Shown: positions 10,348-49,258, numbered from the stretch's first letter. The stretch is 64,000 nt of DNA from Stigmatella aurantiaca DW4/3-1 (GCF_000165485.1 NC_014623.1:4914893-4978892), one strand, 5' to 3'. Numbers and translations: made by a program. The notes: generated from the sequence alone by a model not told the origin.

Positions 10348-11175
10348 ATGCCTGGGACGCTCTACCTTGTTGCCACCCCCATCGGGAACCTGGGGGACAT
10401 CACCTCCCGGGCCCTGGAGATCCTCAAGAAGGTGGCTTTCGTCGCGTGCGAGGACACGCGCCACTCCCGGATTCTGCTGGAGCACTTCGGCCTGGCGCCC
10501 GAGACGGTGAGCCTGCCCGCCTTCGCGGAGGGCCAGCGCGCGGGCCGCCTCCTGGACCGAATGGAGGCCGGGGAGGACTGTGCCCTCATCACCGACGCGG
10601 GCAGCCCGGGCATCAGCGATCCCGGGGAGAAGCTGGTGACGGAGGCCTTGGAGCGCGGCATCCCGGTGGTGCCCGTGCCGGGGCCCGCGGCCCTCATCGC
10701 CGCCCTGAGCGCCTCGGGACTGCCCACGGGCCGCTTCCACTTCCTGGGCTTCCTGCCGCGCAAGGGCCCCGAGCGCCGCACCATGCTGGAGGAGGTGGCT
10801 TTGTTGTCCGCCACGCTCGTGCTCTACGAGTCCCCGCGCCGGCTGGGCGAGACGCTGGCGGATCTGCTGGAGGCGTGGGGCGACCGGCGGGCGTGCGTGG
10901 CCCGGGAGCTGACCAAGATGCACGAGGAGTTCGTGCGGGGGCCCCTGTCCGCGCTGGCCTCCCGCTACGGGGCGGAGGAGCCTCGGGGCGAGGTGGTGGT
11001 GCTGGTGGAGGGCCGCACCGGCGAGCGCCGCTGGTCCGAGGAGGAACTGCGGCGGGCGCTGGAGGAGGGGCTGGAGCGCGGGGAGAAGCTCAAGGCGCTG
11101 AGCACCGAGCTGGCCCGCCGCGCGGGCTGGTCTGGCCAGGACGTCTACCGCCTGGGGCTGAGCCTCAAACGGTGA
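10348..11175 (+). CDS. rsmI: 16S rRNA (cytidine1402-2'-O)-methyltransferase RsmI
   Basis: 'MPGTLYLVATPIGNLGDITSRALEILKKVAFVACEDTRHSRILL' is the canonical RsmI N-terminus. ATG taken at 10348; the ORF's GTG at 10339 is an alternative. Confidence 0.9.
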   Translation: MPGTLYLVATPIGNLGDITSRALEILKKVAFVACEDTRHSRILLEHFGLAPETVSLPAFAEGQRAGRLLDRMEAGEDCALITDAGSPGISDPGEKLVTEALERGIPVVPVPGPAALIAALSASGLPTGRFHFLGFLPRKGPERRTMLEEVALLSATLVLYESPRRLGETLADLLEAWGDRRACVARELTKMHEEFVRGPLSALASRYGAEEPRGEVVVLVEGRTGERRWSEEELRRALEEGLERGEKLKALSTELARRAGWSGQDVYRLGLSLKR

Positions 11176-11194
11176 GGCCCCAGCGGTCGAGGGC

Positions 11195-12469
11195 TCAGAA
11201 CGAGAAGGTCGCCGACAGCTCCAGGCGGAACGTCTTGCTCTCGGTGGCGCGGAAGCGCCGGGACGTCAGGTCCGTGCGGTAGTCGAAGGTGGGGTTGAGC
11301 TCCGCGGGATTGTCCGAGATGTCGATCGTGCCATTGCCGTCGAGGTCCTTGCCGATGTCCTCGTCGGTGAGCGTGTGGTCCGTGTTGTAGAGGAACGTGC
11401 CCGAGGCGCGCAGCCGGAAGGCCTCGCCGGCGCTCGCCGTGGCCCCGATCATGCCACCCACCTGGAAGTAATCCTGGGTGGCCAGCAGCTTGCGCAGGGC
11501 GGAGCTCAGCTCGTTGTAGTACCGGCCCCGGGAGACGTAGTTCCCGAGGGTGCGCAGGTCGAGCGCGAACTGCTGGTTCTTGTTCTTGCTGTTGAAGGCG
11601 GTGATCTCCGTGCCGAACACGAAGCCCGTCGTGCTGGGCGCCTGGATGCCCGTCTCCTTGCGGTTCCAGGGCCCCTGGCCGCAGTTGCCAGGGCGGCCCA
11701 GGGTGGGCGGATTGTTGTCGCTGTTGAAGCAGTTCGAGTAGATGCCCGGCCCGGTCACGGGGATGGTGTGGTGGGCCTTGAAGTAGGGCTCCGCGACGCC
11801 GAGCTTCCGCGAGAACGAGGTGTAGAGGGTGTACTTGTGGACGCGATCCCCCACGTTGCCCCGCTCGTCGGTGGCCTCCGTGTTGTCCTGGCTGGGGTCT
11901 CTCACCTTGGCCGTGGGCGCTTCGTAGTCGATGCCGAGGATCCACGTCGGCTTCGTGCTGTCATCCGCCTGGTTGAAGAAGGCGTAGGCCAGTCCGAAAC
12001 GCATGTTGCCCAGGCCGCCGCGCTTGCTGGTGGACGGGACGGTGAAGAGGGCTTGTTCCCCACCCCCCGGGATGAGCGAGCCATCCGGGTTGAGGCGGTT
12101 GTGGACGATGGTGGAGTTGGCGTCCGTGGTGCCGGACACGTAGCCGTAGCTGTCGTTCTGCTGAAGGATGAGGGGCAGTCCAAAGGACAGCTCCAGATCC
12201 TTGTAGATGCCGATGGACAGATCGATGTTCAGCCGCGAGTCGACACCCTTGTACCAGAGCTCCGTGGCGTCGATGCGTCCGTCGGTGCCCGTGAGCTGCT
12301 CGCGGGTGATCTTCGAGCGGTTCTGGGTGCGCTCGAAGCCGACGTCGATGAACAAATCGAACGGATCGTTCTCCTCGAAAGACGAGGCGATGCGGGTGAT
12401 GTCCGCCGCGCTGGCGGCCAAAGGGGCGCCCAGCGTCAGCGCGGCGAGAACGGCGCGAAGCCTGTACAT
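11195..12469 (-). CDS. Outer-membrane beta-barrel protein (porin-like), unknown family
   Basis: Signal peptide 'MYRLRAVLAALTLGAPLAASA'. Alternating beta-strand-like pattern. C-terminal '...ELSATFSF' aromatic terminus typical of OMPs. Confidence 0.7.
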   Translation of the reverse strand: MYRLRAVLAALTLGAPLAASAADITRIASSFEENDPFDLFIDVGFERTQNRSKITREQLTGTDGRIDATELWYKGVDSRLNIDLSIGIYKDLELSFGLPLILQQNDSYGYVSGTTDANSTIVHNRLNPDGSLIPGGGEQALFTVPSTSKRGGLGNMRFGLAYAFFNQADDSTKPTWILGIDYEAPTAKVRDPSQDNTEATDERGNVGDRVHKYTLYTSFSRKLGVAEPYFKAHHTIPVTGPGIYSNCFNSDNNPPTLGRPGNCGQGPWNRKETGIQAPSTTGFVFGTEITAFNSKNKNQQFALDLRTLGNYVSRGRYYNELSSALRKLLATQDYFQVGGMIGATASAGEAFRLRASGTFLYNTDHTLTDEDIGKDLDGNGTIDISDNPAELNPTFDYRTDLTSRRFRATESKTFRLELSATFSF

Positions 12470-12625
12470 CCGACCTCCGAAGAGCTTCTGACGCTCCCAG
12501 GGCCCGCGGATGCTGGCAGCTGGCCACTGGCCTGCTGCTGACGGTGGCCTAACCCCTGAGAACTCTTGAGAAATTGTCGGCGACGCTAGCCGTCATGCCC
12601 AGGGGTGTCAAGAAATGGGTGCTCC

Positions 12626-13666
12626 TCAGTTCGCGGCCCCGGCCACGGAGGGATTCAGCAGCGAGTCCATCCGGCGGATCTCCGCCTCCAGCGCCCCCCG
12701 CTGCTCCGCGGGCAGCGAGCGCCGGAAGGTGCGGTGGCTGTCGAAGGGATCGATCACGCGGTCATCCTGCGTCATGAGCTGGTAGTGCAGGTGGGGGGCG
12801 AAGGAGCGGCCACTGTTGCCGCTGGCGGCGATCACCTGGCCCGCGGAGAACCGGGTGCCCGGGCTGAGGCCCCGCGACAGCTCGGAGAGGTGGAGGAACA
12901 GGGCGCGGCGCCGCTTGCCGCCGAGCTCCTCCAGCTCCACGCAGTTGCCGTTGGAGCCAAAGTTCCAGTTCTTGCGCTTGACGACCCCCGCGAAGGGGGC
13001 CTTCACCGGCGTGCCCACGGGGGCCTTGAAGTCCACGCCCTTGTGGCGGCGGCCATCGCGGAGCAGGGAGGTGATCTGCTCGTAGTCGTCCAGCGGCGAG
13101 TGCTCCAGCCGCATCTCCATCTCTTCGCCCGAGTTCAGGTAGTAGCGCGGGTTGCGCTCCCCCTGGGCCTGAAAGCGGTACGCCCGGTGCGTCTGGCCCG
13201 TCTTGTTGCTGACGAAGCGCACGGCGTGCACGAGCGGCTCCTCGCCGGGGCGCGTCTGGTACAGCACATCCAGCGTGTCACCCCGGAGGATCTCGTTGGG
13301 CACCTGCACCCACCAGACGAGGCTGCGCGTCACCACCTGGGCCAGCGCGGGGCCCACGGCGGGGTCCGTGGCCTGGACGAGCGCGGTCTCCAGGGGGCCT
13401 TCAATCTTCACCGAGGCCCGCAGGAGCCCCGCGGCGGCCAGCGGATCGGCGGGCACCACGGGACCGGTGGGGGCTGTGACGGCGGGAGGGGCGGCGGCCA
13501 TGGGCAGGGTGGTGCCCCGGGGTGCTTCCGGCACGGGGGACGCAGGGCGTTGTTTCCACCACCACACTCCGCCCGCCGCGGCACCGAGAATCATGGAAAC
13601 GGTGACCACCGGGCCCAGGCGGTTTCGCCTGGGGGGGGCTCCGAGAGTGGGAAGAGACGGCCGCAT
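12626..13666 (-). CDS. M23-family (LytM-like) metallopeptidase
   Basis: 'GVDFKAPVGTPVKAPFAGVV...GNCVELEE...SGNSGRSFAPHLHYQLM' shows M23 HxxxD / HxH motifs. N-terminal membrane anchor. Confidence 0.85.
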   Translation of the reverse strand: MRPSLPTLGAPPRRNRLGPVVTVSMILGAAAGGVWWWKQRPASPVPEAPRGTTLPMAAAPPAVTAPTGPVVPADPLAAAGLLRASVKIEGPLETALVQATDPAVGPALAQVVTRSLVWWVQVPNEILRGDTLDVLYQTRPGEEPLVHAVRFVSNKTGQTHRAYRFQAQGERNPRYYLNSGEEMEMRLEHSPLDDYEQITSLLRDGRRHKGVDFKAPVGTPVKAPFAGVVKRKNWNFGSNGNCVELEELGGKRRRALFLHLSELSRGLSPGTRFSAGQVIAASGNSGRSFAPHLHYQLMTQDDRVIDPFDSHRTFRRSLPAEQRGALEAEIRRMDSLLNPSVAGAAN

Positions 13667-13735
13667 GCAGGCTCCCTGTATCGAGCAGTTCCGCCGGGCC
13701 GAAACCGTTGCCCGCGCGGCGATATTTCGGCCAGG

Positions 13736-15172
13736 CTATTCGTCTGGACCTTCGTCCTTGCTGGCCCCCTCGTCCTTGCCCTCCGGGGCCGAGTCCCGGA
13801 GGCCAAACTCCTTCATCTTCGTTTGAAGCGACTTGCGGCTGATCTGCAGCAGCTTGGCCGCGCGGGTGACATTGCCCCCGGTCTCCTCGAGGGCCTTGGT
13901 AATCAGGTCCTTTTCGAGCTCCGCGGCCTTCATGCGGATGATGTCCTTGAGCCCGGTCTCCCCAGTATGCGCTTCCACCGCTGGCGGGCCAGCAGGCGAG
14001 AGGGCAGGGGAGGTGTCGCCTTGGCGAATGGGCTCCGGCAGATCCTTGACGGTGATGAGGGGACCGTCCGCGAAGAGCAGGACGCGCTCGATGAGGTTCT
14101 CCAACTCGCGGATGTTGCCCGGCCAGGCATAGGCCTGGAGCAGGGCCAAGGCATCGTCGGTGATGCCCTCGATGCGCTTGTTGAGCCGGCGGTTGTACTT
14201 GTCCACGAAGTACCGCACGAGCATGGGGATGTCGCTGCGGCGCTCCCGGAGCGCGGGCAGGACGATGGGCACCACCGCGAGCCGGTAGTACAGGTCCTTG
14301 CGGAAGCGCCCGCCTTCGATCTCCGCCTGGAGGTCCTGGTTGGTGGCGGCGATGAGGCGCACGTCCACGCGCGTCGTCTTGATGCCGCCCACCCGCTCGA
14401 ACTCCCCCTCCTGGAGGGCGCGCAGCAGCTTCACCTGCATCTCGACGGGGATCTCGCCGATCTCGTCCAGGAAGAGGCTGCCGCCATCGGCCAGCTCGAA
14501 GCGGCCGGGCTTGGAGGTGACCGCGCCGGTGAAGGCGCCCCGCTCGTAGCCGAACAGCTCGGACTCGATGAGGTTGTGCGGGATGGCCGCGCAGTTGATC
14601 TTGATGAAGGGCTTGTCCCGGCGGCTGGAGGCGCCGTGCAGGGCGGTGGCGATGAGCTCCTTGCCCGTGCCGCTCTCGCCGGTGATGAGCACCGTGGAGG
14701 GGGTGTCCGCCACCTTGTCGATGATCTTGTAGACGTCCTGGATGAGCGGGGACTCGCCGATGATGGCGGTGCGGGCCTTGATGTCCGGACGCACCGAGCG
14801 CCGGGCGCTCTCGTGGGCCTTGGAGGCCTTGGCGATGACGGCGGACAGCTCCGACTGCTCGAAGGGCTTGGTGATGTAGTCGAACGCGCCGGCCTTGATG
14901 GCCTCCACGGCGGAGTCCACCGTGCCATGGGCGGTGATGATGATGACGGGCACGTCCGGGTTGGCGGCGTTGACGCTGCGCAGGACCTCCATGCCGCCCA
15001 CCTTGGGCATCACCAGATCCGTCACCACGATGTCGGCGCCGTTCTTGTGGAACTCGGCGAGCCCTTGCTCGCCGTTCTCGGCGACGGTGACGTCGTAGCC
15101 TTCCCGCCGCAGCATGGCGGCGAGGACCTTGCGGAGATTCGCCTCGTCGTCGAGGACCAGGACCTTGGTCAT
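13736..15172 (-). CDS. Sigma-54-dependent Fis-family response regulator (NtrC-like activator)
   Basis: REC domain '[17 protein letters not shown]...DLVMP'. AAA+ sigma54-interaction domain with 'GESGTGKE' and GAFTGA motif. C-terminal Fis-type HTH '[16 protein letters not shown]'. Confidence 0.9.
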
Positions 15173-15193
15173 GCGGTAGGGGACGCGCCCGGG

Positions 15194-16057
15194 TTACTTG
15201 TTGACCACAAGGGGAGGGGCTTCGAGCGTACAGATGGAGTCGGGGTGCTTGATGCGCAGGATGAGCGCCTCCAGCACCCGGAAGGGGTGATTCATGCGCG
15301 AGGCGCCCAGGTAGGCGGTGACCATGTCCATGGCCACGGTCAGGTCCATGTTCTCGCGGCCCGTGGACACCACCACGCCGGAGTCTCCCCGGAGGCGGTT
15401 GGACTGGAACACGCCATCCGAGGCGAGCTGGCGGATGGTTTCGATCTCCAGCACACCTGTCTTCTCGAAGATGCGGTGGAGCAGCGAGTACAGCCGGGGC
15501 GAGAGCACCACGGCGTAGGGGCCGTAATGGCCGTGCTCGTTGAGCTTCCGGGTGGCCTCGACGATGGCCACGTAGCCGGCACCCGGTGTGGCCCAGTCGC
15601 CCAGGGGGACCGTGAGGCGGTCGGTGGCCGTCATCAACCCCTCGTGGCCGAGCTTGGGGTCTCCGTAGAAGATGAGCTCGTCCTCCTGCTGCGCGCAGAG
15701 GGCGGCGGCGCCGGCGGCGGCGGACACGTCCAGCGGCATGTTGTGGATGCGGGCCGCCTCGATGTCGCGCCAGTGCAGCAGGAAGTCCTTGTAGATGATG
15801 GGGATGGTCTTGAACTTGCGCACGTCGGTGAAGACCGTGGCGGTCTCCTGCTCGCCGACGATGTCGATGGCCCCCGAGGACACCCCCTGGTACTCGTCGT
15901 GGGGCACCGATTGGACGCCCGCGCCCAGCGGCCCATAGATGTCGAGGATGCGGCGGCCGACGAGCGAGCGGCGTGCCACCTGGATGACGGTCTCGTTCAG
16001 TCGGGCCCACTCCTCTTCACGGAGGGGGTTCTCGGCATGTCCCAGAAAGTCAGGCAT
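15194..16057 (-). CDS. encA: Family-1 encapsulin nanocompartment shell protein
   Basis: 287 aa 'MPDFLGHAENPLREEEWARLNETVIQVARRSLVGRRILDIYGPLGAG...' is an HK97-fold linocin-M18-like encapsulin. N-terminus matches my recollection of M. xanthus EncA. Confidence 0.9.
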   Translation of the reverse strand: MPDFLGHAENPLREEEWARLNETVIQVARRSLVGRRILDIYGPLGAGVQSVPHDEYQGVSSGAIDIVGEQETATVFTDVRKFKTIPIIYKDFLLHWRDIEAARIHNMPLDVSAAAGAAALCAQQEDELIFYGDPKLGHEGLMTATDRLTVPLGDWATPGAGYVAIVEATRKLNEHGHYGPYAVVLSPRLYSLLHRIFEKTGVLEIETIRQLASDGVFQSNRLRGDSGVVVSTGRENMDLTVAMDMVTAYLGASRMNHPFRVLEALILRIKHPDSICTLEAPPLVVNK

Positions 16058-16096
16058 TGGAGGTCTCGTTGGGCGAAAGGTGGAGCGCAGCCGGCA

Positions 16097-16570
16097 TCAC
16101 GGCGCGTTTCCGCTGCCCCCCCGGCGCCGGAGCGACCCCACGGTGAGCGGGGCAGCGTTCGTCGAGGGAGGAGCGGGCACGCCATAGACGACGCGTTGGG
16201 GGGGCAGGTGGGAAATCGGTTCGATGACAGGGGGCGCCCGGGTCTGCTCCGGGCCCGCGGGGGCCGGAGACGGACTGGCGGGAGCCGGAGGCGCAGGGGG
16301 GGCGCTCAGGACCTTCTGGAAGTGGCCGGGAGCGATGGGCTGAGCGAAGTGCCCATCCTGTGCGCTGTCCAACATGCGCAGCATCTGGGTGGCCTCGGCG
16401 ACGTGTTCTTTCTCCTCGGCGGCCAGGTGCAGAAAGAAGGCGCGGACTTCCGGGTGCGAGGAGATCTGCGCGAAGGCCTCGTATTCGTTGATGGTCTCCA
16501 GTTCACGTGCGAGCACACGGCGAATCCGCGCCACATCGTTCAGGAGTTCCGTGTCGGAAGAACCGGCCAT
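16097..16570 (-). CDS. encB: Ferritin-like/rubrerythrin-like encapsulin cargo protein with C-terminal targeting peptide
   Basis: 'ELLNDVARIRRVLARELETINEYEAFAQ...FFLHLAAEEKEHVAE' is ferritin-like helix chemistry. Pro/Ala-rich linker, then C-terminal 'PLTVGSLRRR'-type cargo-loading peptide. Start at internal ATG (MAGSSDTELL). Confidence 0.8.
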   Translation of the reverse strand: MAGSSDTELLNDVARIRRVLARELETINEYEAFAQISSHPEVRAFFLHLAAEEKEHVAEATQMLRMLDSAQDGHFAQPIAPGHFQKVLSAPPAPPAPASPSPAPAGPEQTRAPPVIEPISHLPPQRVVYGVPAPPSTNAAPLTVGSLRRRGGSGNAP

Positions 16571-16764
16571 CGCGCAGGGACCATTGCGGCCCGCTGGGTC
16601 GACCGTCAAGGAAAACAGTGGCCCTCTGCCTTCCTGCTTCAGGGTGGTGAACGTCCCGCGTAGAGTCCCGCGCCCGCTTGAATGCTCCTGCCTCTCAATC
16701 TCAGTCAGCCTCCGCGCCTTCTGCTTCCGTCAAACCCTCGGGAGCGGGCGGTGGCCGCGGGGCC

Positions 16765-18378
16765 ATGCTCGTTGCCGTCGGCATCCTCGCCTCCCGGTTG
16801 ATGGGGTTGGTGCGCGAGCGCGTCTTCGCTCACTATCTGGGCAACTCCGCCGCGGCGGCTGTCTTCAAGGCCGCGCTGCGCATTCCCAACTTTCTGCAGA
16901 ACCTCTTCGGAGAGGGCGTGCTCTCGGGCTCGTTCATCCCGGTATACGCGCAGCTGCTGGGAAAGAAGGACAGCGAGGAGGCGGACCGGGTCGCGGGGGC
17001 CGTCTTCGGGCTGATGGCGCTCGCCACCAGCGTCATGGTGGCGCTGGGCATGGTGGCCACGCCCCTCTTCGTGGACGCCATCGCTCCTGGCTTCGAGGGC
17101 GAGTCCCGGCAGTTGGCCATTCAACTGGTCCGCATCGTCTTTCCCGGGACTGGGCTGCTGGTGCTGTCCGCGTGGTGCCTGGGCATCCTCAACAGCCATC
17201 GCCGCTTCCTCCTGTCTTACTTGGCGCCGGTCGTCTGGAACCTCGTCATCATCGCCGCGCTCGTGCTGGCGGGGGGCCGGATGGGCGAGGCGCGGCTGGT
17301 GGAGGTGCTGGCCTACGCGGTGGTGCTGGGCGGCCTCCTTCAGTTCGGGGTGCAGGTGCCGTCCGTGCTGCGGCTGCTGGGGCGCTTCCGGCCCTCGCTC
17401 TCCGTGGCGAGCGACTCCGTGCGCCAGGTGCTGCGCAGCTTCGTGACGGTCGTCATCGGCCGGGGCGTGGTGCAGATCAGCGCCTACGTGGACACGGCCA
17501 TCGCGTCCTTGTTGTCCGAGCGGGCCCTGTCCTCGCTGTTCTATGCGCAGACGATCTACCTCATCCCGGTGAGCCTCTTCGGCATGGCGGTGTCCGCGGC
17601 GGAACTGCCCGAGATGGCGCGCGCCACGGGAGGCGCCACCGAGGAGGTGAACACGCGGTTGCGCGAGCGCATCGAGGCAGGCGCCCGGCGCGTGGCCTTC
17701 TTCGTCGTGCCGTCGGCCGCCGCGTTCCTCTTCATAGGAGACGTGGTGGGCGCGGCGCTCCTCCAGACGGGCCGCTTCACGGCGGCGGACTCGCGGTACG
17801 TGTGGTACCTGCTGATGGGGTCCGCCGTGGGCTTGGTGTCCGGCACGGTGGGGCGGATCTACTCCTCCACCTATTACGCGATGAAGGACCCGGCGACGCC
17901 GCTGCGCTTCGCGTTGGTGCGCGTCTCCTTGGGAGCCCTCCTGGCCTGGGGGGTGGGTTTGCACCTGGCGCCCTGGATTGGCCTGCCGAGACACCTGAGC
18001 GCCGTCTTCATCACCGTGGCCAGTGGTCTGGCGGCCTGGCTGGAGTCCTTTCTGCTGCGCCGCAAGCTCGTCCGGAAGCTGGGGGGCGCGGTGGGACCCC
18101 CTCCCGGGGTACTCCCCAAGCTGTGGATGTGTGCCCTCATCGCGGGCGGGGTAGGGTTGGCCACCAAATGGGTTCTTTTCCGGAAGTTTGGGCCCATGCC
18201 AGGGGTATCGGAAGAGTGGGGGGGCGGGGTGCTCAGCCCCCCGGCGCTGCACCCGGTGGTAACGTTTCTGGCCGTGGTGGGCCCCTTCGGCGCAGCCTAC
18301 TTTGCCCTCACCGGCGCTCTGGGATTTCCTCAGGCCCAGGCGGTGTTCCGCCGGGCGCGGCGGCTCCTGGGACGGTAG
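16765..18378 (+). CDS. murJ: Lipid II flippase MurJ/MviN
   Basis: 'MLVAVGILASRLMGLVRERVFAHYLGNSAAAAVFKAALRIPNFLQNLFGEGVLSGSFIPVY' is the canonical MurJ N-terminus, with multi-TM continuation. Alternative TTG start at 16678. Confidence 0.9.
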   Translation: MLVAVGILASRLMGLVRERVFAHYLGNSAAAAVFKAALRIPNFLQNLFGEGVLSGSFIPVYAQLLGKKDSEEADRVAGAVFGLMALATSVMVALGMVATPLFVDAIAPGFEGESRQLAIQLVRIVFPGTGLLVLSAWCLGILNSHRRFLLSYLAPVVWNLVIIAALVLAGGRMGEARLVEVLAYAVVLGGLLQFGVQVPSVLRLLGRFRPSLSVASDSVRQVLRSFVTVVIGRGVVQISAYVDTAIASLLSERALSSLFYAQTIYLIPVSLFGMAVSAAELPEMARATGGATEEVNTRLRERIEAGARRVAFFVVPSAAAFLFIGDVVGAALLQTGRFTAADSRYVWYLLMGSAVGLVSGTVGRIYSSTYYAMKDPATPLRFALVRVSLGALLAWGVGLHLAPWIGLPRHLSAVFITVASGLAAWLESFLLRRKLVRKLGGAVGPPPGVLPKLWMCALIAGGVGLATKWVLFRKFGPMPGVSEEWGGGVLSPPALHPVVTFLAVVGPFGAAYFALTGALGFPQAQAVFRRARRLLGR

Positions 18379-18606
18379 GCGGGGAGGACGGATGGCGGGA
18401 GAGGCGCCAGGCATTTCCGGGCGCCCAAGGGGGGGCCCTGTGGGATGGAAGTGACGACGCGCCGCGTTCAAAAAGAACGCAGTGTGCGCGAAAGGAAGCA
18501 AGCGGCTTCCGTCCCAGCCGGGCATCTGTGTAGAGTGCGCCGCCTTTTTCAGGACCCGGTGTTTGCCTGAACCCTGGGCAGGATTTCCTTCAGGAAGGTC
18601 TCGGCA

Positions 18607-20607
18607 GTGAGCGACGAGAAAAGCGGTTCTGGTGGAGCCGGTGGGTTTGGCCCTAAGAAGCCAAAGGCCACCTTCGGCGACGTGATGCTCGGTATTCCCT
18701 CCGGCCGCAGCGGCGAGCGTGAGGGCAAGGGGAGCGACCGTCCCAGCGACAAGGGCCGAGGCCCTGGCCGAGGGGGCGGTGAACGCGAGGCGCGTCCGAA
18801 GCCCGAGGGTGAGGCCGGTGGTCCGTCCGCCTCCACCCCGCGGGAGGAGCGCCGTCCCCGGGGAGACCGGGATCGCGGCGGCGACCGCCGTGGCGGCAGC
18901 GGGGGCGAGCGCAAGCAGGGCCCCATGGTCGTGGTGAAGCGTGCCTCGGGAGTCATCGAGACGCGGAGCCCGTCTGGTGAGCCATCCGCTCCCCCCGAGG
19001 AGGGAGAGGCTTCCGCGGCGCAGGCGGCTCCGGCCACCGAGGCTCCCGCCGCGCCGGCGCCCACGCCCCGTCCTGTCCCCGCGCCAAGCAGCCCGCTCTA
19101 TGAGGACGTGCCCGAGAACGAGTCCTTCGCGGAGATGTTCGAGGCGCAGGTGAAGGAGGGCGGAGTGCCCGCCCGCCGCAGCGTGCGCATCGGTGAGAAG
19201 GTCACCGGGAAGATCTTCCAGCTGGGCGCGGACACGGCGTTCGTTTCGCTCGATGGCGTCAAGAGCGAGGCGATGATCGAGCTGCGCGAGCTGAAGGACG
19301 ATGAGGGGATCCTGCGCTACGGCGTGGGGGATCCGATCGAAGCGCACGTCATCGAGTCGGGCGCGCGCGGCGTCCTGCTGAGCCGTGCGTTGGCCAAGGG
19401 CAGCGCGTCCATGGCCATGCTCGCCGAGGCGAGGGCCTCGGGCATGCCCGTGGAGGGCATGGTGCTGGGCGTGAACAAGGGCGGTGTGGAGGTCGCCATC
19501 GGCGATGTGCGCGCCTTCTGCCCGATCAGCCAGCTCGACGTGCGCTTCGTGGAGAAGCCGGATCAGTTCATCGGCGAGAAGCTGACGTTCCGGGTCACCG
19601 AGGTGAGGGATCGCAACGTGGTGCTCTCGCGCCGCTCGCTGCTCGAGGAGGAGCAGCGCAAGCAGGCCGAGCAGACGCGGAAGACCCTGGCCGAGGGCAA
19701 GGTGATCAAGGGCAAGATCACCGGCGTGCGCGACTTCGGCGCCTTCGTGGACGTGGGCGGAGTGGAGGGGATGATCCCCGTCTCCGAGATGTCCTACCAG
19801 CGCGTCGGCCACCCCAGCGAGGTGGTGAAGGTCGGCGACGAGGTGGAGGTGGAGATCCTCCGCATGGAGGCGGGCCAGCCGAACTCGCCCGACAAGGCGA
19901 AGCAGAAGGAGCGCATCACGCTCTCGCTGCGGGCCCGCCAGGAAGACCCCTTCAAGGTGGCGCTGGCCGAGCTGAAGGAAGGCGACCGGCTCCAGGGCAA
20001 GGTTGTCCGGCTCCAGCAGTTCGGGGCCTTCGTGGAGCTGCGCCCGGGCGTGGATGGCCTGGTGCACATCTCGGCGCTTTCGGATCGCCGCATCGCGCAC
20101 CCGCGGGATGTGGTGCAGGTGGGCGAGACGATCTGGGTGGCGATCGAGAAGATCGATCCCAACGAGAAGCGCATCGGCCTGCGGAAGATCTCCGAGGAGG
20201 ATGCGCAGCGTCCTGCCGAGGAGCGCCCGGCCCCGGCCGCGGCGAAGGCCGCCGAGCCCCAGGCGCCGCGCCCGAAGGTGGGCCAGGTGGTCACTGGCAA
20301 GGTGGATCGCATCGAGCCGTATGGCGTCTTCCTGGCGTTCCCGGGCGGCAAGGGGTTGATCCCCGCCGCCGAGACGGGCACGGACCGGGGCACGGATCTG
20401 CGCAAGCACTTCTCGCTGGGCCAGGAGGTGAAGGTGGCCATCCTGGACATCGATGCTTCCGGGAAGATCCGCCTGTCGATCACCGCCGCCGAGCGAGCAG
20501 AGGAGCGCGCGGAGCTGGACGCCTGGCAGAAGTCCCAGAAGCCCGCGAGCGGTGGGGGCAAGGGCTTTGGAACGCTCGCCGACCTGCTGAAGAACCGGAA
20601 GGTTTGA
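18607..20607 (+). CDS. S1 RNA-binding-domain protein (ribosomal protein S1-like) with Arg/Gly-rich disordered N-terminus
   Basis: 666 aa. About 130-aa RG/RGG-rich low-complexity head (GGGEREARP...RGDRDRGGDRRGGSGGERKQG) followed by several S1/OB repeats (..GEKVTGKIF.., ..GKVIKGKITGV.., ..GDRLQGKVVRL.., ..GQVVTGKVDRI..). Confidence 0.85.
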   Translation: MSDEKSGSGGAGGFGPKKPKATFGDVMLGIPSGRSGEREGKGSDRPSDKGRGPGRGGGEREARPKPEGEAGGPSASTPREERRPRGDRDRGGDRRGGSGGERKQGPMVVVKRASGVIETRSPSGEPSAPPEEGEASAAQAAPATEAPAAPAPTPRPVPAPSSPLYEDVPENESFAEMFEAQVKEGGVPARRSVRIGEKVTGKIFQLGADTAFVSLDGVKSEAMIELRELKDDEGILRYGVGDPIEAHVIESGARGVLLSRALAKGSASMAMLAEARASGMPVEGMVLGVNKGGVEVAIGDVRAFCPISQLDVRFVEKPDQFIGEKLTFRVTEVRDRNVVLSRRSLLEEEQRKQAEQTRKTLAEGKVIKGKITGVRDFGAFVDVGGVEGMIPVSEMSYQRVGHPSEVVKVGDEVEVEILRMEAGQPNSPDKAKQKERITLSLRARQEDPFKVALAELKEGDRLQGKVVRLQQFGAFVELRPGVDGLVHISALSDRRIAHPRDVVQVGETIWVAIEKIDPNEKRIGLRKISEEDAQRPAEERPAPAAAKAAEPQAPRPKVGQVVTGKVDRIEPYGVFLAFPGGKGLIPAAETGTDRGTDLRKHFSLGQEVKVAILDIDASGKIRLSITAAERAEERAELDAWQKSQKPASGGGKGFGTLADLLKNRKV

Positions 20608-22491: not shown

Positions 22492-24639
22492 TCAGGTCAT
22501 CGGTCGGCCGCTGCTGGCCTGGGCCATGCGCACCGCCCGCTCCATCAACTCTCCCTGCGCCCAGCGCTTCTCCCCCTGGGGCGTGCGCCGTTGCCACGTG
22601 CCACCCATTTGAAGTTCCCAGGCATGGGTGTTGTCCGCGAGGGACCGGTCGAGCAGATCCCGGACCTGTGCCAGCAACTGTCCATCCTCCACGGGAACCA
22701 GTGCCTCGACCCGATGGTCCAGGTTGCGGGGCATCAAGTCCGCCGAGCCGATGAAGCAGCGCACCCCACCGGCCCGCTCGAACAGGTAGATGCGCGAGTG
22801 TTCGAGGAAGCGGCCCAGCGTCGACACCACCCGGATGTTCTCGGACAGGCCGGGGACCCCGGGCCGCAGGCAGCAGATGCCCCGGATATTGAGTTCCACC
22901 TTCACCCCGGCACGGGCCGCGCCGTACAGGGCCTGGATCATCGCCGGATCCACCAAGGCGTTCATCTTCAACTGGATGCGCGCCGGGTGCTCCGGGGAGT
23001 GGGCCTCTGCCGTCCGGCGGATCTCCTCCAGCAGGCCCTGCCGCATGTTGAGGGGCGCCACCAGCAGCTTGCGGAAGGACTGGGGGCGGGCAAAGCCGGT
23101 CAGGAAGTTGAAGAGGTCCGCCACGTCCGCGCCAATCTCGGGATCCGTGGTGAACAGCCCCAGGTCCGTGTAGAGCCGCGCCGTCTTCGGGTTGTAGTTG
23201 CCGGTCCCGATGTGGACGTAGTGGCGCACCTTCTCGCCCTCGCGGCGGACGATGAGGATGGCCTTGGCGTGCGTCTTGAGGCCGGGGATGCCATAGACGA
23301 CGTGCACCCCAGCTTCCTCCAGGGCCATCGCCCACCGGATGTTGGTGCGCTCATCGAAGCGGGCCTTGAGCTCCACCATGCACACGGCCTGCTTGCCGCT
23401 CTCCGTGGCGCGGATGAGGGCGGGCACCAGGGGCGAGCTGTCCGAGGTCCGGTACACCGTCTGCTTGATCGCGAGGACATCGGGATCCTCCACCGCCTGG
23501 GTGACGAAGCACTCCACCGAGGAGGAAAAGGACTCATAGGGGTGGTGGACGAGCAGATCACCCCGGCGCATCGCCGCCACCACCGAGAGGGGCTCTCCGT
23601 CCGAGTCCGAACGCAGCCGGGGCTGGGTCACGGGGGTCCACGGTGGATCCTTCAGCTCGGTGAAGCCCGGGGTGCCCAGCAGCGCGTGGAGATCCGTCAG
23701 GGCGAGCAACCCTTGCTCCGCGTAGACCTGACGAGGCTCCAGCCCGAGCGCCTCCACCAGCGGCTCGAGCAGCTTGGGGTTCATGCCCGCCTGGATCTCC
23801 AGGCGGACGACATTGCCGAAGCGGCGCTCGCGCAACTCCGCCTGCACGGCCACCAGGAGATCCTCGGCATCGTCCGACACCGTGAAGTCCGCATCCCGGG
23901 TGACGCGGAACAGCCCGTGGTCCAGCACCTCCATGCCCGGAAACAGCGCGCTCAGGTGGTGGGCGATGATGTCCTCGAGCGGGACGAAGTCCGTGCGGCC
24001 CTTGAGCGGCACGAAGCGGGGCAGGGCCTCGGTGGGGACCTTCACCCGCGCCACGTTCTCTGTCTCCGCCACGGGATCTCGGAGCAGCACCGCCAGGCTC
24101 AGCGAGAGGTTGGAGATATAGGGGAAGTGCCGTCCGAGCCCGATGGCCAAGGGGGTGAGCACCGGGAAGATCTGCTCGCGGAAGCGCTGGTCCACTTGCG
24201 CCCGGGCCTCCGGATCGAGCGCCCCCATGGAGAGAATGCGCAGGCCTTTTTCCGCCAGGGCGGGGCGCAGGCTCCGCTCGAAGCAGGCGCTGTGCCGCTG
24301 GCCTTGCTCGAGGATCTTCGCGTTCAGCTGGTCGATCGTCTCGCCTGGGTCCGCCCCATCCGGGACCAGCCGGGCCACACCGGAGCGGGCCTGCTCGTGC
24401 AGCCGGGCCACCCGGATCATGAAGAACTCATCCAGGTTGCGGGCGTAGATGGCGCAGAACTTCAGGCGCTCCATCAGGAATTCCGAGGGATCCTCGGCAA
24501 GCTGGAGTACCCGGTCGTTGAAGGCGAGCCAGGACAGCTCCCGGTTGAAGAAGAGGTTCCGGTCCGGCAGCTCCACGCCTTCCGGAATGACATCCCGCTC
24601 ACTGGGCTTGGGGGGGTTGCCCTTGCCGCGCTTCGCCAT
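22492..24639 (-). CDS. ppk: Polyphosphate kinase 1
   Basis: 'LFFNRELSWLAFNDRVLQLAEDP...' PPK1 N-terminus and both PLD-like catalytic domains over ~715 aa. Start at internal ATG (MAKRGKG). Confidence 0.95.
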   Translation of the reverse strand: MAKRGKGNPPKPSERDVIPEGVELPDRNLFFNRELSWLAFNDRVLQLAEDPSEFLMERLKFCAIYARNLDEFFMIRVARLHEQARSGVARLVPDGADPGETIDQLNAKILEQGQRHSACFERSLRPALAEKGLRILSMGALDPEARAQVDQRFREQIFPVLTPLAIGLGRHFPYISNLSLSLAVLLRDPVAETENVARVKVPTEALPRFVPLKGRTDFVPLEDIIAHHLSALFPGMEVLDHGLFRVTRDADFTVSDDAEDLLVAVQAELRERRFGNVVRLEIQAGMNPKLLEPLVEALGLEPRQVYAEQGLLALTDLHALLGTPGFTELKDPPWTPVTQPRLRSDSDGEPLSVVAAMRRGDLLVHHPYESFSSSVECFVTQAVEDPDVLAIKQTVYRTSDSSPLVPALIRATESGKQAVCMVELKARFDERTNIRWAMALEEAGVHVVYGIPGLKTHAKAILIVRREGEKVRHYVHIGTGNYNPKTARLYTDLGLFTTDPEIGADVADLFNFLTGFARPQSFRKLLVAPLNMRQGLLEEIRRTAEAHSPEHPARIQLKMNALVDPAMIQALYGAARAGVKVELNIRGICCLRPGVPGLSENIRVVSTLGRFLEHSRIYLFERAGGVRCFIGSADLMPRNLDHRVEALVPVEDGQLLAQVRDLLDRSLADNTHAWELQMGGTWQRRTPQGEKRWAQGELMERAVRMAQASSGRPMT

Positions 24640-24760
24640 GCCTGGGCCCTCTGGGGTGGACCGGGGATGCGAACAAGCCTCCTCCCGGCATACCAGATGG
24701 GGTTTTGGCTTTTTTACACTTTGAGACAAAGTGCGTCCGCCACTGCTGGAGGGTTTCACC

Positions 24761-48113: not shown

Positions 48114-49118
48114 TTAGAACACGTCCTTGAGGTGCACGCTCAGGTGGGTATCGCCGGTGCCCAGGGTGCTCAGGTCGTCCTTGGGAACGACATAGCCCTG
48201 ATCCGCGCCGACGTGCTGCCGGTAGTAGTCCACCACGGCCGCGTCCTGCACATCGGACGTGGTGGTCTTCTTGACGCCATAGGCCGTGCCGTCAGCGGTC
48301 TTGGCCTTGATGGAGTCCGGCGCGCCCGCCGCGAGGTTGTCCAGCGTTCCGGAGACCCGGCCGCCGCTCTCCGGCGCGATGGTCATGCTGGCGTTGTTCC
48401 CCTCGATGTAGCTCACATCGTAGTAGGTCTGGTTTTCGCCGCCGTTGAACGCGACCTCTCCGAGGGTGGCCGCCGCGCCGTCGCCGGCCGTGCTGCGGAA
48501 GTTGCCGGACCAGCCCTGGGGGAACTCCTTCGTCACGGACTCACCCGGCTGAAGCGTCAGCGGCTCGATCTCCTGGCCACCGGCGTTCGGCGTGAACTTG
48601 ATCTCCATTGGCTTGGTGCCGTCGTTGGTGAACTCCATCGTGTTGCCGGTCTTGGACGCGTTCTTCGACGCACCCGCGGGAGCCACCGGGGCCGCGCCCG
48701 CCGGGGCCGCATCCGCTGCCGCCGCCGGGGCCGCGCCCGCGGGAGCCGCCGCTGCCGCCGCATCCGCCGCTGCCGCCGGGGCCGCGCCCGCCGCCGCCGC
48801 GTCGCCCAGCTCCGGCACGCCACCGCCCAGCTCGGGGGCCGCGAGGTCCCCGCCCGCGTTCGCGCCGCCCAGCAGTTCCACGGCCTTGTTCAGCAACTGG
48901 GAGATCTGCTCGAACCCCTTGCTCAGCGCCGCCAGGGATCCCTGCGAGCCCCCGGCGTCGAAGCTGTCGGTCTGCAGCAGGCTCTGGAGGGGGTTGCTCC
49001 GGGGTGTGCTCAGCGCCTCCAATCCCGGGGTCTGCTGGGACTGGGCGGGCACCGGCGCGGTCTGGGGGGCAGAGGAGGGGAAGGAGACGGGCGAGCGGGA
49101 GACGGAGGAAATAGACAT
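48114..49118 (-). CDS. Hypothetical protein with Ser/Pro-rich N-terminus, Ala/Pro tandem-repeat linker and C-terminal beta-rich domain
   Basis: Start at internal ATG (MSISSV). 'AAAAGAAPAAAADAAAAAAPAGAAPAAAADAAPAGAAPVAPAG' is encoded by GC-rich tandem DNA repeats (~48680-48840). C-terminal ~170 aa are globular-looking. Confidence 0.5.
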   Translation of the reverse strand: MSISSVSRSPVSFPSSAPQTAPVPAQSQQTPGLEALSTPRSNPLQSLLQTDSFDAGGSQGSLAALSKGFEQISQLLNKAVELLGGANAGGDLAAPELGGGVPELGDAAAAGAAPAAAADAAAAAAPAGAAPAAAADAAPAGAAPVAPAGASKNASKTGNTMEFTNDGTKPMEIKFTPNAGGQEIEPLTLQPGESVTKEFPQGWSGNFRSTAGDGAAATLGEVAFNGGENQTYYDVSYIEGNNASMTIAPESGGRVSGTLDNLAAGAPDSIKAKTADGTAYGVKKTTTSDVQDAAVVDYYRQHVGADQGYVVPKDDLSTLGTGDTHLSVHLKDVF

Positions 49119-49258
49119 GGCGGGAGTTCCTCGGGAGCGGGGTGGAAGGGAGCGGGCCGGAGCCTGTTGTCCGGAGTAAGAGCACACGCCGTGCCAGCCC
49201 CCTGGAGTCTGTAAACCCGCGAAAAGACGTGAAGGGCCCGGTTCCAGGAAGACGACTC

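What the first reader, a model, noticed from the sequence alone, without database searches (positions are those of the whole stretch)
13736..16570. Encapsulin nanocompartment locus (EncA shell + ferritin-like EncB cargo) adjacent to a sigma-54 activator
The shell protein is an unmistakable family-1 encapsulin. The upstream 157-aa gene has ferritin-like helices plus a C-terminal 'LTVGSLRRR'-type loading peptide after a P/A-rich linker. Immediately downstream on the same strand (21-nt gap) lies an NtrC-like REC-AAA-HTH activator. The EncA/EncB system is described for M. xanthus from my memory. The tight linkage to an enhancer-binding protein suggests developmental or stress regulation worth testing.
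Basis: partly seen in the sequence, partly recalled or inferred. Interest (0 to 1): 0.55.

Follow-up and report, generated by a model that had tools for sequence, protein, structure and literature searches.

The report
Known iron-storage encapsulin operon (Stigmatella)
This is the Stigmatella aurantiaca copy of the well-studied Myxococcus xanthus iron-storing protein nanocompartment (EncA shell, EncB ferritin-like cargo); the sigma-54 activator gene next to it is real and anciently linked, but the DNA gives no sign that it switches the compartment genes on.

Summary
Three minus-strand genes lie as described: encB (16097-16570, 157 aa), encA (15194-16057, 287 aa) and a REC-AAA+-HTH enhancer-binding protein (EBP, 13736-15172, 478 aa), with gaps of 39 and 21 nt. 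The window is Stigmatella aurantiaca DW4/3-1.

EncA matches the solved M. xanthus EncA (E 3.5e-170). EncB passes NCBI's EncB model, keeps every ferroxidase-centre residue and ends in LTVGSLRR. This is an ortholog of a characterised system, so it is already known.

The EBP is the ortholog of M. xanthus MXAN_3555 ("NtrC3555"), an orphan activator of unknown function.

The proposed -24/-12 promoter is absent. The best sigma-54 score upstream of encB is below the window's chance mean, also in distant relatives and upstream of encC. encB instead has a conserved sigma-70-type promoter (CTTGACGG-N18-AATGGT).

Comparative loci suggest an origin for the linkage. An ancestral histidine kinase-EBP pair beside rsmI/rplS appears to have received encBA just upstream of the EBP. 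In Myxococcaceae the kinase now lies elsewhere.

The EBP is probably co-transcribed with encBA and acts on unknown sigma-54 promoters elsewhere. Interest is low; the kinase-EBP inference is a modest new lead.

The parts
16097..16570 (-). encB: ferritin-like (EncFtn-type) encapsulin cargo protein, 157 aa
   Evidence: NCBIfam NF058678 EncB, 257 bits (cutoff 210). Pfam EncFtn-like. PDB 7S5C EncB, E=3.5e-36. 100% identical to a Stigmatella aurantiaca protein annotated 'hypothetical protein'.
16346..16540 (-). EncB two-helix ferritin-like domain (residues 11-75) carrying the ferroxidase-centre residues E23, Y30, E53 and H56
   Evidence: These residues are invariant in 14 EncB and 2 EncC orthologs. 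Their spacing matches Rru-EncFtn E32/Y39/E62/H65, which mutagenesis showed to be needed for ferroxidase activity (PMC11202242). They align with iron-bound P. furiosus EncFtn 5N5E.
16166..16222 (-). Conserved motif inside the EncB 'flexible' linker: E-P-x-x-x-L-P-P-Q-R-(V/L)-x-Y-G-x-P-A-P-P (residues 117-135)
   Evidence: E117 is invariant, and P123, P124 and R126 are at least 90% conserved in alignment A2. The motif is absent from EncC and from the short 110-aa EncB of L069. No function is known.
16124..16147 (-). C-terminal targeting (cargo-loading) peptide LTVGSLRR (residues 142-149)
   Evidence: Found. L142, T143, G145, L147 and R148 are invariant. The same LTVGSLR peptide of M. xanthus EncB/C/D is seen bound to EncA by cryo-EM (PMC11126975).
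15194..16057 (-). encA: family-1 encapsulin shell protein, 287 aa
   Evidence: PDB 4PT2/7S2T M. xanthus EncA, E=3.5e-170 over residues 1-280. About 90% identity to M. xanthus by tblastn. Pfam Linocin_M18, 6e-66. NF041155, 283 bits. Peptide-contact residues D39 and D214 are kept; Y217 is F.
13736..15172 (-). Sigma-54 enhancer-binding response regulator (REC-AAA+-HTH_8), ortholog of M. xanthus MXAN_3555 'NtrC3555'
   Evidence: Pfam domains. D52 phospho-acceptor, Walker A at 165, GAFTGA at 212, Walker B at 233. 84% identical to the gene directly downstream of encA in M. xanthus. MXAN_3555 is listed as an orphan NtrC homolog (PMC3892784). It reaches no NCBIfam equivalog cutoff.
16571..16677 (.). 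Divergent murJ-encB intergenic region with conserved blocks (GACTCTACGC, TGAAGCAGGAA, CTTGACGG, GCAATGGTCC); no sigma-54 promoter
   Evidence: Alignment of 18 loci. Best sigma-54 score is 13.5 against a null mean of 14.05 (sd 1.24).
16580..16609 (-). Putative sigma-70-type encB promoter: -35 TTGACG (16609-16604), 18-nt spacer, -10 AATGGT (16585-16580). The -10 ends 9 nt before the ATG, so the mRNA would be leaderless or nearly so.
   Evidence: CTTGACGG is invariant, and nA(T/G)GGT keeps A2 and T6 in 18 loci. TTGACG-N17-CAGATT/CACATT is also present in the divergent L069 and L089. This is an inference; the strict consensus scan found no sigma-70 site.
15173..15193 (-). 21-nt encA-EBP spacer with no room for a terminator plus a promoter
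   Evidence: The gap is 0-32 nt and unconserved in sequence in 17 of 18 loci examined. No terminator-like site lies on this strand in 13500-16900.
13667..13735 (-). EBP-M23 peptidase intergenic region with conserved GCCGAAATATCGCC...CGGTTTCGGCCC blocks and a CAGGGAGC ribosome-binding site. It is probably the start of a separate transcription unit, which would mark the 3' limit of the encB-encA-EBP unit.
   Evidence: No consensus RNA fold: -1.2 kcal/mol and no compensatory pairs.

Best explanation
The locus is the Stigmatella aurantiaca ortholog of the M. xanthus EncA/EncB iron-storage encapsulin. By homology, EncA assembles into an HK97-fold icosahedral shell. EncB forms ferritin-like decamers whose inter-subunit di-iron centres oxidise Fe2+. 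EncB is tethered inside the shell by its C-terminal LTVGSLRR peptide at the end of a long Pro/Ala-rich linker. Further cargo, an EncC ortholog, is encoded at a separate locus. encB-encA is transcribed from a conserved sigma-70-type promoter that ends 9 nt before the encB ATG. The EBP gene, 21 nt after encA, is most likely the third gene of the same transcript. The EBP is not the activator of this operon through sigma-54. It looks like the response-regulator half of an older histidine kinase-EBP two-component pair, with the encBA module inserted directly upstream of its gene. In Myxococcaceae the kinase gene (GAF-HisKA-HATPase, next to an SLT transglycosylase gene) now lies elsewhere, so the EBP looks like an orphan. 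The EBP would then be made whenever the encapsulin operon is expressed and, once phosphorylated, would act on sigma-54 promoters elsewhere. Shown here: gene identities, catalytic and targeting residues, absence of a -24/-12 element, and the synteny series. Inferred: shell assembly and ferroxidase activity (by homology), the promoter assignment, co-transcription, the direction of the insertion event, and the kinase-EBP pairing.
For: Identity; the window is S. aurantiaca DW4/3-1 at 99.99%. Ferroxidase residues and targeting peptide are invariant, with literature support. An EncC ortholog ending in LTVGSLRR lies at another locus of the same genome. No sigma-54 promoter: 13.5 vs null 14.05; L069, L089, L092; L096-L098; encC, four genera. 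The one strong in-gene match at 15978-15963 is not conserved: its GG sits on a synonymous Val position and is CG in about half of 71 loci. A sigma-70-type box is conserved. For comparison, the neighbouring OMP-like gene shows a clean TTGACA-N17-TAGCGT. Co-transcription: the encA-EBP gap is 0-32 nt and unconserved in 17 of 18 loci, and there is no terminator-like site. History: 68 of 80 EncA loci have the EBP directly downstream. L069, L089, L097 and L098 have HK ... encB-encA-EBP with different left and right flanks. L092 (an Anaeromyxobacteraceae MAG) and L095 have HK-EBP adjacent, without enc genes, in the same rsmI/yraN/rplS/trmD/rimM neighbourhood, with the EBP 66-68% identical to the window's. 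Myxococcaceae-type contigs keep SLT<- ->HK without the EBP. S. aurantiaca has an HK ortholog, P0272, at 59% identity. EncA relatives at 69% identity or less sit in unrelated contexts without an EBP.
Against: No transcript data were available, so co-transcription and the promoter are inferred. The -10 hexamer is weak, and the strict consensus scan reports no sigma-70 promoter. The encA-EBP junction has outlasted several changes of both flanks, which could mean selection for a functional tie tighter than passive co-transcription. Loss of encBA in the Anaeromyxobacteraceae-type loci is as parsimonious as gain by event counting alone. Orthology of the HK and EBP rests on identity levels and synteny, not on trees. 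In L097 and L098 a Kelch-repeat gene on the opposite strand separates the HK from encB, and in L097 a PAS kinase follows the EBP, so the cognate kinase is uncertain. encD was not examined.
Confidence: 0.75

Rival explanations
1. One reading: the adjacent EBP activates encB-encA transcription from a sigma-54 (-24/-12) promoter, giving developmental or stress control of the nanocompartment.
For: The EBP is directly linked to encA in 68 of 80 loci, and the junction has outlasted changes of both flanks. The EBP has all the motifs needed for sigma-54 activation. M. xanthus encapsulin expression is reported to rise under oxidative stress and starvation (PMC11202242 and PMC11126975).
Against: There is no -24/-12 match upstream of encB in the window (13.5, below the chance mean of 14.05), in five divergent relatives or upstream of encC in four genera. 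The in-gene match in encA is not conserved at synonymous sites. A conserved sigma-70-type -35 box sits where the promoter should be. HK-EBP pairs without any enc genes exist in the same chromosomal neighbourhood.
Confidence: 0.05
2. The EBP regulates encBA without a sigma-54 promoter. It would bind the conserved upstream blocks (GACTCTACGC, TGAAGCAGGAA) and repress or assist the sigma-70-type promoter, giving autoregulation of an encB-encA-EBP operon.
For: Conserved non-coding blocks of unknown function lie 50-100 nt upstream of the encB ATG in 18 loci. The -10 element is weak, as in activator-dependent promoters. The long-lived linkage fits autoregulation. From general knowledge, NtrC-family proteins can repress sigma-70 promoters, for example glnAp1.
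Against: The blocks lie in a 107-nt divergent region shared with murJ, and may be the murJ promoter or leader: TAGAGT on the plus strand lies 14 nt before the murJ TTG. No clear inverted repeat of the kind bound by HTH_8 dimers was seen. The blocks are not evident upstream of encB in L069 or L089.
Confidence: 0.1
3. The linkage is a neutral historical accident with no shared transcript. The EBP would have its own promoter in the 3' end of encA, and its biology would be unrelated to the encapsulin.
For: In Myxococcaceae the whole block from rpsA to rimM is syntenic, so adjacency within that family says little. In L060 a P-type ATPase gene sits between encA and the EBP. In L069 the gap is 204 nt and contains a perfect hairpin. 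HK-EBP pairs exist without enc genes. No developmental phenotype is listed for the M. xanthus MXAN_3555 mutant.
Against: Gaps of 0-32 nt in 17 of 18 loci leave no space for a terminator plus a promoter. No terminator-like site was found. The encA-EBP junction persisted while the left flank (HK, Kelch gene, murJ) and the right flank (OMP-like, PAS kinase, M23) changed.
Confidence: 0.15

Closest known systems
Myxococcus xanthus EncA/EncB/EncC/EncD encapsulin (MXAN_3556/3557/4464/2410; PDB 4PT2, 7S2T, 7S5C, 7S8T)
   Same: Same gene order encB-encA. EncA is about 90% identical and EncB about 61% overall, higher across the ferritin domain. The ferroxidase residues and the LTVGSLRR targeting peptide are the same. 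An EncC ortholog lies at a separate locus. The downstream EBP and the flanking genes are the same.
   Different: A different genus (Stigmatella), and the proteins have not been studied here. EncA Y217, which contacts the last Arg of the peptide in M. xanthus, is Phe. The peptide is followed by RGGSGNAP. The linker sequence differs except for the conserved LPPQRxxYGxPAPP block.
Encapsulated ferritins of Rhodospirillum rubrum and Haliangium ochraceum (EncFtn; PDB 5DA5, 5N5F)
   Same: A two-helix ferritin-like fold with an inter-subunit E/E/H di-iron centre plus Tyr, and a C-terminal shell-targeting peptide.
   Different: Only distant sequence similarity (E 7e-4 to 0.1). Those peptides are SLGIGSLK-type. 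EncB has a much longer linker.
M. xanthus NtrC3555 (MXAN_3555), one of 27 NtrC-like activators, classed as an orphan
   Same: Ortholog by position (directly downstream of encA) and by 84% identity. Same REC-AAA+-HTH architecture.
   Different: No function, target or kinase is reported for it. Here a candidate cognate kinase is proposed from comparative synteny.
Classical NtrB/NtrC, AtoS/AtoC and ZraS/ZraR two-component systems
   Same: The domain architecture is the same. The ancestral-type loci L092 and L095 have an adjacent HisKA kinase with the AHEIRNPL H-box.
   Different: The EBP scores below every NCBIfam equivalog cutoff (ntrC 483 vs 559; AtoC 482 vs 714). No kinase is adjacent in this window, and no sigma-54 target promoter is nearby.

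Membership tests
Family 1 encapsulin shell protein (EncA) | HK97-type shell protein sequence family (Pfam Linocin_M18; NCBIfam NF041155 encap_f1) | tested here: met
   PF04454, 6.2e-66. NF041155, 283 bits against a cutoff of 100. PDB 4PT2, E=3.5e-170.
Family 1 encapsulin shell protein (EncA) | Cargo gene with a targeting peptide encoded next to the shell gene | tested here: met
   encB ends 39 nt upstream of encA on the same strand. This order holds in the Myxococcaceae loci whose contigs reach that far.
Family 1 encapsulin shell protein (EncA) | Targeting-peptide pocket residues that contact the peptide in M. xanthus EncA (D39, D214, Y217) | tested here: inconclusive
   D39 and D214 are present; position 217 is Phe, not Tyr. 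The residue roles come from PMC11126975.
Family 1 encapsulin shell protein (EncA) | Self-assembly into a closed icosahedral (T=3) shell | not testable with these tools
   Inferred only from about 90% identity to the solved M. xanthus shell.
EncB / encapsulated ferritin-like cargo (EncFtn, FLP-TP class) | Match to the EncB-specific model above its curated cutoff | tested here: met
   NF058678, 257.4 bits against a cutoff of 210. Pfam EncFtn-like, 27.7 bits against 27.
EncB / encapsulated ferritin-like cargo (EncFtn, FLP-TP class) | Di-iron ferroxidase-centre ligands (Glu, Glu, His, plus the conserved Tyr) | tested here: met
E23, Y30, E53 and H56 are present and invariant in 16 EncB/EncC sequences. 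Their spacing is identical to Rru-EncFtn E32/Y39/E62/H65.
EncB / encapsulated ferritin-like cargo (EncFtn, FLP-TP class) | C-terminal targeting peptide LTVGSLR after a flexible linker | tested here: met
   Residues 142-148 are LTVGSLR. They are invariant across orthologs. The same peptide is seen bound to EncA in M. xanthus.
EncB / encapsulated ferritin-like cargo (EncFtn, FLP-TP class) | Decamer formation, ferroxidase activity and peptide-dependent loading | not testable with these tools
   Inferred by homology to PDB 7S5C.
Bacterial enhancer-binding protein, NtrC-type response regulator | REC domain with phospho-acceptor Asp, AAA+ domain with Walker A/B and the GAFTGA sigma-54 contact loop, and a C-terminal Fis-type HTH | tested here: met
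   Pfam. D52, GESGTGKE at 165, GAFTGA at 212, LFLDE at 233.
Bacterial enhancer-binding protein, NtrC-type response regulator | A sigma-54 (-24 GG / -12 GC) target promoter at the regulated, usually neighbouring, operon | tested here: not met
   No site above chance in any intergenic region of the locus, in relatives or at encC. The in-gene site is not conserved. Targets elsewhere in the genome could not be searched.
Bacterial enhancer-binding protein, NtrC-type response regulator | A cognate histidine kinase encoded next to it | tested here: not met
   No kinase ortholog in the window, in agreement with the 'orphan' label in M. xanthus. A kinase is adjacent in the ancestral-type loci L092 and L095.
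NtrC / AtoC / ZraR proper (NCBIfam equivalogs) | Score above the equivalog cutoff | tested here: not met
   ntrC 482.7 vs 558.6; AtoC 481.8 vs 714; ZraR 428 vs 760. It is a generic family member, not one of these named regulators.

The most novel reading that the evidence does not exclude
encBA was captured inside a histidine kinase-EBP two-component operon and has been kept directly upstream of the EBP gene across Myxococcaceae and at least one sister lineage. The reason would be that the pair forms a dedicated circuit. The encapsulin promoter would set the level of the EBP. The EBP, phosphorylated by the now-distant GAF kinase, would drive a sigma-54 regulon tied to the compartment's job, such as iron release or uptake, encD, or oxidative-stress and starvation genes. 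That would be the first dedicated regulator described for an encapsulin, and it would give the 'orphan' NtrC3555 both a kinase and a function.
Probability: 0.15. Interest if true: 0.5.

Novelty: already known. Interest (0 to 1): 0.2.

Why it matters
The encapsulin itself adds nothing new. It is a close ortholog of the best-studied T=3 iron-storage encapsulin and is recognised by curated models. It is still annotated only as 'hypothetical protein' or 'ferritin' in Stigmatella, so the annotation can be corrected.

The useful by-products are three:
- A negative result: the adjacent sigma-54 activator is unlikely to drive encBA through a -24/-12 promoter.
- A comparative-genomic account of why the activator sits there, with a testable candidate kinase for an activator listed as orphan in M. 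xanthus.
- A conserved, unexplained motif in the supposedly disordered EncB linker, which could matter to people who engineer cargo loading.

Tried and rejected
- **Sigma-54 promoter upstream of encB.** Scored with a weighted TGGCACG-N4-TTGCW scheme against a null built from all 107-nt stretches of the window. Nothing above chance.
- **In-gene site.** The strong match TGGCACGCCGCTCGCT at 15978-15963 inside encA (score 18.5) was rejected. Its GG falls on a synonymous Val codon position and is CG in about half of 71 orthologous loci.
- **Other weak matches.** Sites in the EBP-M23 gap (TGGCCGAAATATCGCC) and the M23-OMP gap (TGGCCAGCTGCCAGCA) were rejected because the spacing or the site itself is not conserved.
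- **RNA structure.** A conserved fold in the EBP-M23 intergenic region was tested and not supported: -1.2 kcal/mol and no compensatory pairs. Rfam found nothing in 11000-19000 except a sub-threshold snoRNA hit inside murJ.
- **Strict promoter and terminator scan.** No sigma-70 site and no minus-strand terminator in 13500-16900.
- **Hybrid kinase next to encC as the EBP's missing partner.** It is only 33% identical, over the kinase core, to the kinase found upstream of encB in L069, so it is not the ortholog. A functional link is not excluded.
- **Additional cargo genes in the window.** None carries the targeting peptide.
- **Literature.** No held paper mentions MXAN_3555 by locus tag or links encapsulins to sigma-54 or EBPs. 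McHugh 2014 and Eren 2022 are not held. Only Willett 2013 lists NtrC3555.
Full report
**Observation check**

- encB is 16097-16570 (157 aa from the ATG at 16570).
- encA is 15194-16057 (287 aa).
- The REC-AAA+-HTH activator (EBP) is 13736-15172 (478 aa).

The gaps are 39 nt (encB to encA) and 21 nt (encA to EBP). The longer 170-aa ORF that starts at the TTG at 16609 is an artefact. That TTG belongs to a conserved TTGACGG box. The ATG at 16570 is conserved in related loci and matches the N-terminus of crystallised M. xanthus EncB.

Third-position GC is 0.91-0.94 for encA and the EBP, as for other genes of this 68% GC window. The window is Stigmatella aurantiaca DW4/3-1. EncB is 100% identical to a protein of that genome annotated 'hypothetical protein'. 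The draft contig AAMD01000098 matches the window at 99.99% over 10.5 kb.

**What the enc genes are**

EncA:
- It hits Pfam Linocin_M18 (6e-66) and NCBIfam 'family 1 encapsulin shell protein' (283 bits, cutoff 100).
- It matches the solved M. xanthus EncA (4PT2, 7S2T and others) with E=3.5e-170 over residues 1-280.
- It is about 90% identical to M. xanthus EncA.

EncB:
- It passes NCBI's EncB-specific model (257 bits, cutoff 210).
- It matches the EncB crystal structure 7S5C (E=3.5e-36), and more weakly EncC and other encapsulated ferritins.

E23, Y30, E53 and H56 are present. They are invariant in 14 EncB and 2 EncC orthologs. Their spacing is that of Rru-EncFtn E32/Y39/E62/H65, whose mutation reduces or abolishes ferroxidase activity (PMC11202242).

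The C-terminus carries LTVGSLRR (residues 142-149) after a Pro/Ala-rich linker. L142, T143, G145, L147 and R148 are invariant. The same LTVGSLR peptide of M. xanthus EncB, EncC and EncD is seen bound to EncA by cryo-EM, where it contacts D39, D214 and Y217 (PMC11126975). In this EncA, D39 and D214 are kept and position 217 is Phe.

No other ORF of the window carries the peptide. An EncC ortholog (129 aa, ending QLTVGSLRR) lies elsewhere in the same genome. The system is therefore a straightforward ortholog of the M. xanthus EncA/EncB/EncC encapsulin.

**The activator**

The 478-aa protein has Response_reg, Sigma54_activat, AAA_lid_14 and HTH_8 domains. It has the phospho-acceptor D52, Walker A and B motifs and the GAFTGA loop. 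It reaches no NCBIfam equivalog cutoff, so it is a generic NtrC-family member.

It is 84% identical to the gene directly downstream of encA in M. xanthus. That gene is MXAN_3555. Willett et al. 2013 list it as 'NtrC3555', one of six orphan NtrC homologs with no adjacent kinase, and list no developmental phenotype for its mutant (PMC3892784). No held paper mentions MXAN_3555 by tag. None of the listed papers in the encapsulin/sigma-54 search mentions encapsulin.

**Promoters**

I scored every position with a weighted TGGCACG-N4-TTGCW scheme. I compared the results with the distribution of best scores in all 107-nt stretches of the window (mean 14.05, sd 1.24).
- The encB upstream region 16571-16677 scores 13.5. 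Extending to 16800 changes nothing.
- The only GG-N10-GC there (16634) matches nothing else of the consensus.
- The other intergenic gaps of the locus score 12.5-15.5, and their best sites are not conserved in spacing or presence.
- A strong match inside encA (15978-15963, score 18.5) is a by-product of the codons for V-A-R-R-S-L. Its GG lies on a synonymous position and is CG in about half of 71 orthologous loci.
- The same negative result holds upstream of encB in divergent relatives and upstream of encC in Stigmatella, Myxococcus, Archangium and Corallococcus.

What is conserved upstream of encB is CTTGACGG, then 18 nt, then nA(T/G)GGT (AATGGT here, 16585-16580). This element ends 9 nt before the ATG. 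In the divergent loci L069 and L089 the equivalent is TTGACG-N17-CAGATT or CACATT, followed by a roughly 35-nt leader with a ribosome-binding site.

I read this as a sigma-70-family promoter with a weak -10. In Myxococcaceae it would give a leaderless or nearly leaderless encB mRNA. This is an inference, and the strict consensus scan finds nothing. For comparison, the neighbouring 424-aa OMP-like gene has a clean, conserved TTGACA-N17-TAGCGT, and encC has TTGACC-N17-GATGCT.

**Is the EBP part of the operon?**

The encA-EBP gap is 0-32 nt and unconserved in sequence in 17 of 18 loci examined. There is no terminator-like site on that strand. Co-transcription is therefore the simplest reading.

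Downstream, the 69-nt EBP-M23 gap carries conserved blocks (GCCGAAATATCGCC...CGGTTTCGGCCC) and a good ribosome-binding site. It has no consensus RNA fold. It probably starts a separate unit.

**Why the EBP is there**

Of 80 genome loci encoding EncA relatives, 68 have the EBP directly downstream. All 68 have EncA at 70% identity or more, and nearly all are titled Myxococcaceae/Archangiaceae-type.

Within that family the adjacency alone says little, because the whole block is syntenic: rpsA<-murJ<- ->encB->encA->EBP->M23->OMP-> <-rsmI<-yraN<-X<-rplS<-trmD<-rimM.

The informative loci are outside the family.
- **Kinase, then encBA, then EBP.** L069 (a MAG with EncA 70% identical) and L089 (a metagenome contig) have a GAF-HisKA-HATPase kinase, then encB (108-110 aa), encA and the EBP on one strand. 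In L089 an OMP-like gene, rsmI, yraN and rplS follow.
- **Fuller version.** L097 and L098 show the left side: the kinase (in L097 preceded by a divergent SLT gene), then a Kelch-repeat gene on the opposite strand, then encB, encA and the EBP. In L097 a PAS kinase, rsmI and yraN come after the EBP.
- **Kinase-EBP pair without enc genes.** L092 (an Anaeromyxobacteraceae MAG) and L095 have the kinase and the EBP adjacent. That EBP is 66-68% identical to the window's. The neighbourhood is the same: OMP-like gene, rsmI, yraN, rplS, trmD, rimM.
- **Kinase left behind.** In three further contigs carrying the roughly 710-aa ortholog (53-56% identical to the L069 kinase), it stays next to the SLT gene without the EBP. 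S. aurantiaca has one too, P0272 at 59% identity. It is not in the window.
- **Distant EncA loci.** EncA relatives at 69% identity or less sit in unrelated contexts without an EBP.

The simplest history is that an ancestral kinase-EBP pair beside rsmI...rimM received the encBA module directly upstream of the EBP gene. A later rearrangement in the Myxococcaceae ancestor then separated the kinase. Loss of encBA in the L092 and L095 lineages is formally as parsimonious by event count. I prefer insertion because kinase-regulator adjacency is the norm and encBA occurs in many unrelated contexts.

Two consequences follow. First, the linkage does not require the EBP to regulate the encapsulin. Second, the GAF kinase next to SLT is a concrete candidate partner for the 'orphan' NtrC3555.

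The encA-EBP junction has outlasted changes on both sides. The left flank is the kinase, a Kelch gene or murJ. The right flank is an OMP-like gene, a PAS kinase or M23. The one exception is L060, where a P-type ATPase gene is inserted. I therefore keep open a tighter functional tie (see the novel case).

**Mechanism, with status**

Inferred by homology to the M. xanthus system: EncA builds the shell. EncB decamers oxidise Fe2+ at inter-subunit di-iron centres and are tethered by LTVGSLRR. Iron is mineralised inside, which protects against oxidative stress.

Shown here: all sequence determinants for this are intact.

Inferred from sequence: transcription from a sigma-70-type promoter with a minimal leader; the EBP as third gene of the transcript; EBP targets elsewhere.

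Not supported: sigma-54/EBP activation of encBA or encC.

**Novelty**

The encapsulin is already known, both as a system and as curated protein families. The Stigmatella copy is merely under-annotated. The kinase-encBA-EBP series, the candidate kinase for NtrC3555 and the conserved EncB linker motif are small new leads rather than a new kind of system.

Noticed in passing
window 16166-16222 (-), EncB residues 117-135: A strongly conserved motif, EPxxxLPPQR(V/L)xYGxPAPP, sits inside the supposedly flexible EncB linker in all 14 Myxococcaceae EncB sequences aligned. It is absent from EncC and from the short EncB of L069. No function was found in the papers read.
   Followed up: partly
window 16580-16609 (-): The conserved -10-like hexamer of encB ends only 9 nt before the ATG and there is no Shine-Dalgarno sequence, so encB mRNA may be leaderless in Myxococcaceae. 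The divergent L069 and L089 instead have a roughly 35-nt leader with GGGAGG.
   Followed up: partly
window 15407-15409 (-), EncA residue 217: EncA Tyr217, which contacts the terminal Arg of the EncB/EncC targeting peptide in M. xanthus, is Phe in this genome. D39 and D214 are kept.
   Followed up: no
window 13667-13735 (-): The EBP-M23 peptidase intergenic region has conserved blocks, GCCGAAATATCGCC (GCGGAATTCC in Myxococcus) and CGGTTTCGGCCC, about 16 nt apart, then CAGGGAGC. This may be an alternative-sigma (ECF-like) promoter or a protein-binding site. It has no consensus RNA fold.
   Followed up: partly
window 12470-12625 (-), upstream of the 424-aa OMP-like gene 11195-12469: A very well conserved TTGACA-N17-TAGCGT promoter with a long leader. 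The same promoter sits before the orthologous gene even in an Anaeromyxobacteraceae MAG (L092). The protein has no Pfam or NCBIfam match.
   Followed up: partly
L081, L083, L084, L086 (encC loci of Stigmatella, Myxococcus, Archangium, Corallococcus): In all four genera encC lies between a divergent hybrid histidine kinase (HisKA-HATPase-REC) and a convergent REC-GGDEF gene, near groEL. The kinase is not the ortholog of the one found upstream of encB in L069: 33% identity over the kinase core.
   Followed up: partly
L097 5315-6277 (-) and L098 2918-4036 (-): A Kelch-repeat lipoprotein-like gene on the opposite strand is inserted between the kinase and encB in two metagenome contigs. In L097 a PAS-PAS-HisKA kinase gene starts 20 nt after the EBP stop.
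   Followed up: partly
L060 and L061: Two MAG lineages have lost encB, with murJ directly upstream of encA. L061 keeps encA-EBP. L060 has a P-type cation ATPase gene inserted between encA and the EBP.
   Followed up: partly
L069 2513-2718: The 204-nt encA-EBP spacer of this MAG contains a perfect hairpin, CGGAATCCTGCC-GAGA-GGCAGGAATCCG. It may be an attenuator that lowers EBP expression relative to encA.
   Followed up: no
window 22492-24759 (-): A polyphosphate kinase (ppk1) gene lies about 6 kb from the enc locus. M. xanthus encapsulin cores are iron- and phosphorus-rich (Fe:P 4:1). This is probably coincidental.
   Followed up: no
window 49181-49196 (-): The best sigma-54 consensus match in the window, TGGCACGGCGTGTGCT (19 of 20), lies near the 5' end of a 401-aa ORF (48114-49319). 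It may be a real sigma-54 promoter, 33 kb from the EBP.
   Followed up: no
window 16678-16762 (+), murJ 5' end: The murJ start is ambiguous. The TTG at 16678 (GTG in Myxococcus) is conserved, but the next 28 codons are low-complexity and poorly conserved, and the public annotation starts 29 codons later (537 aa). A conserved TAGAGT lies 14 nt upstream of the TTG.
   Followed up: no
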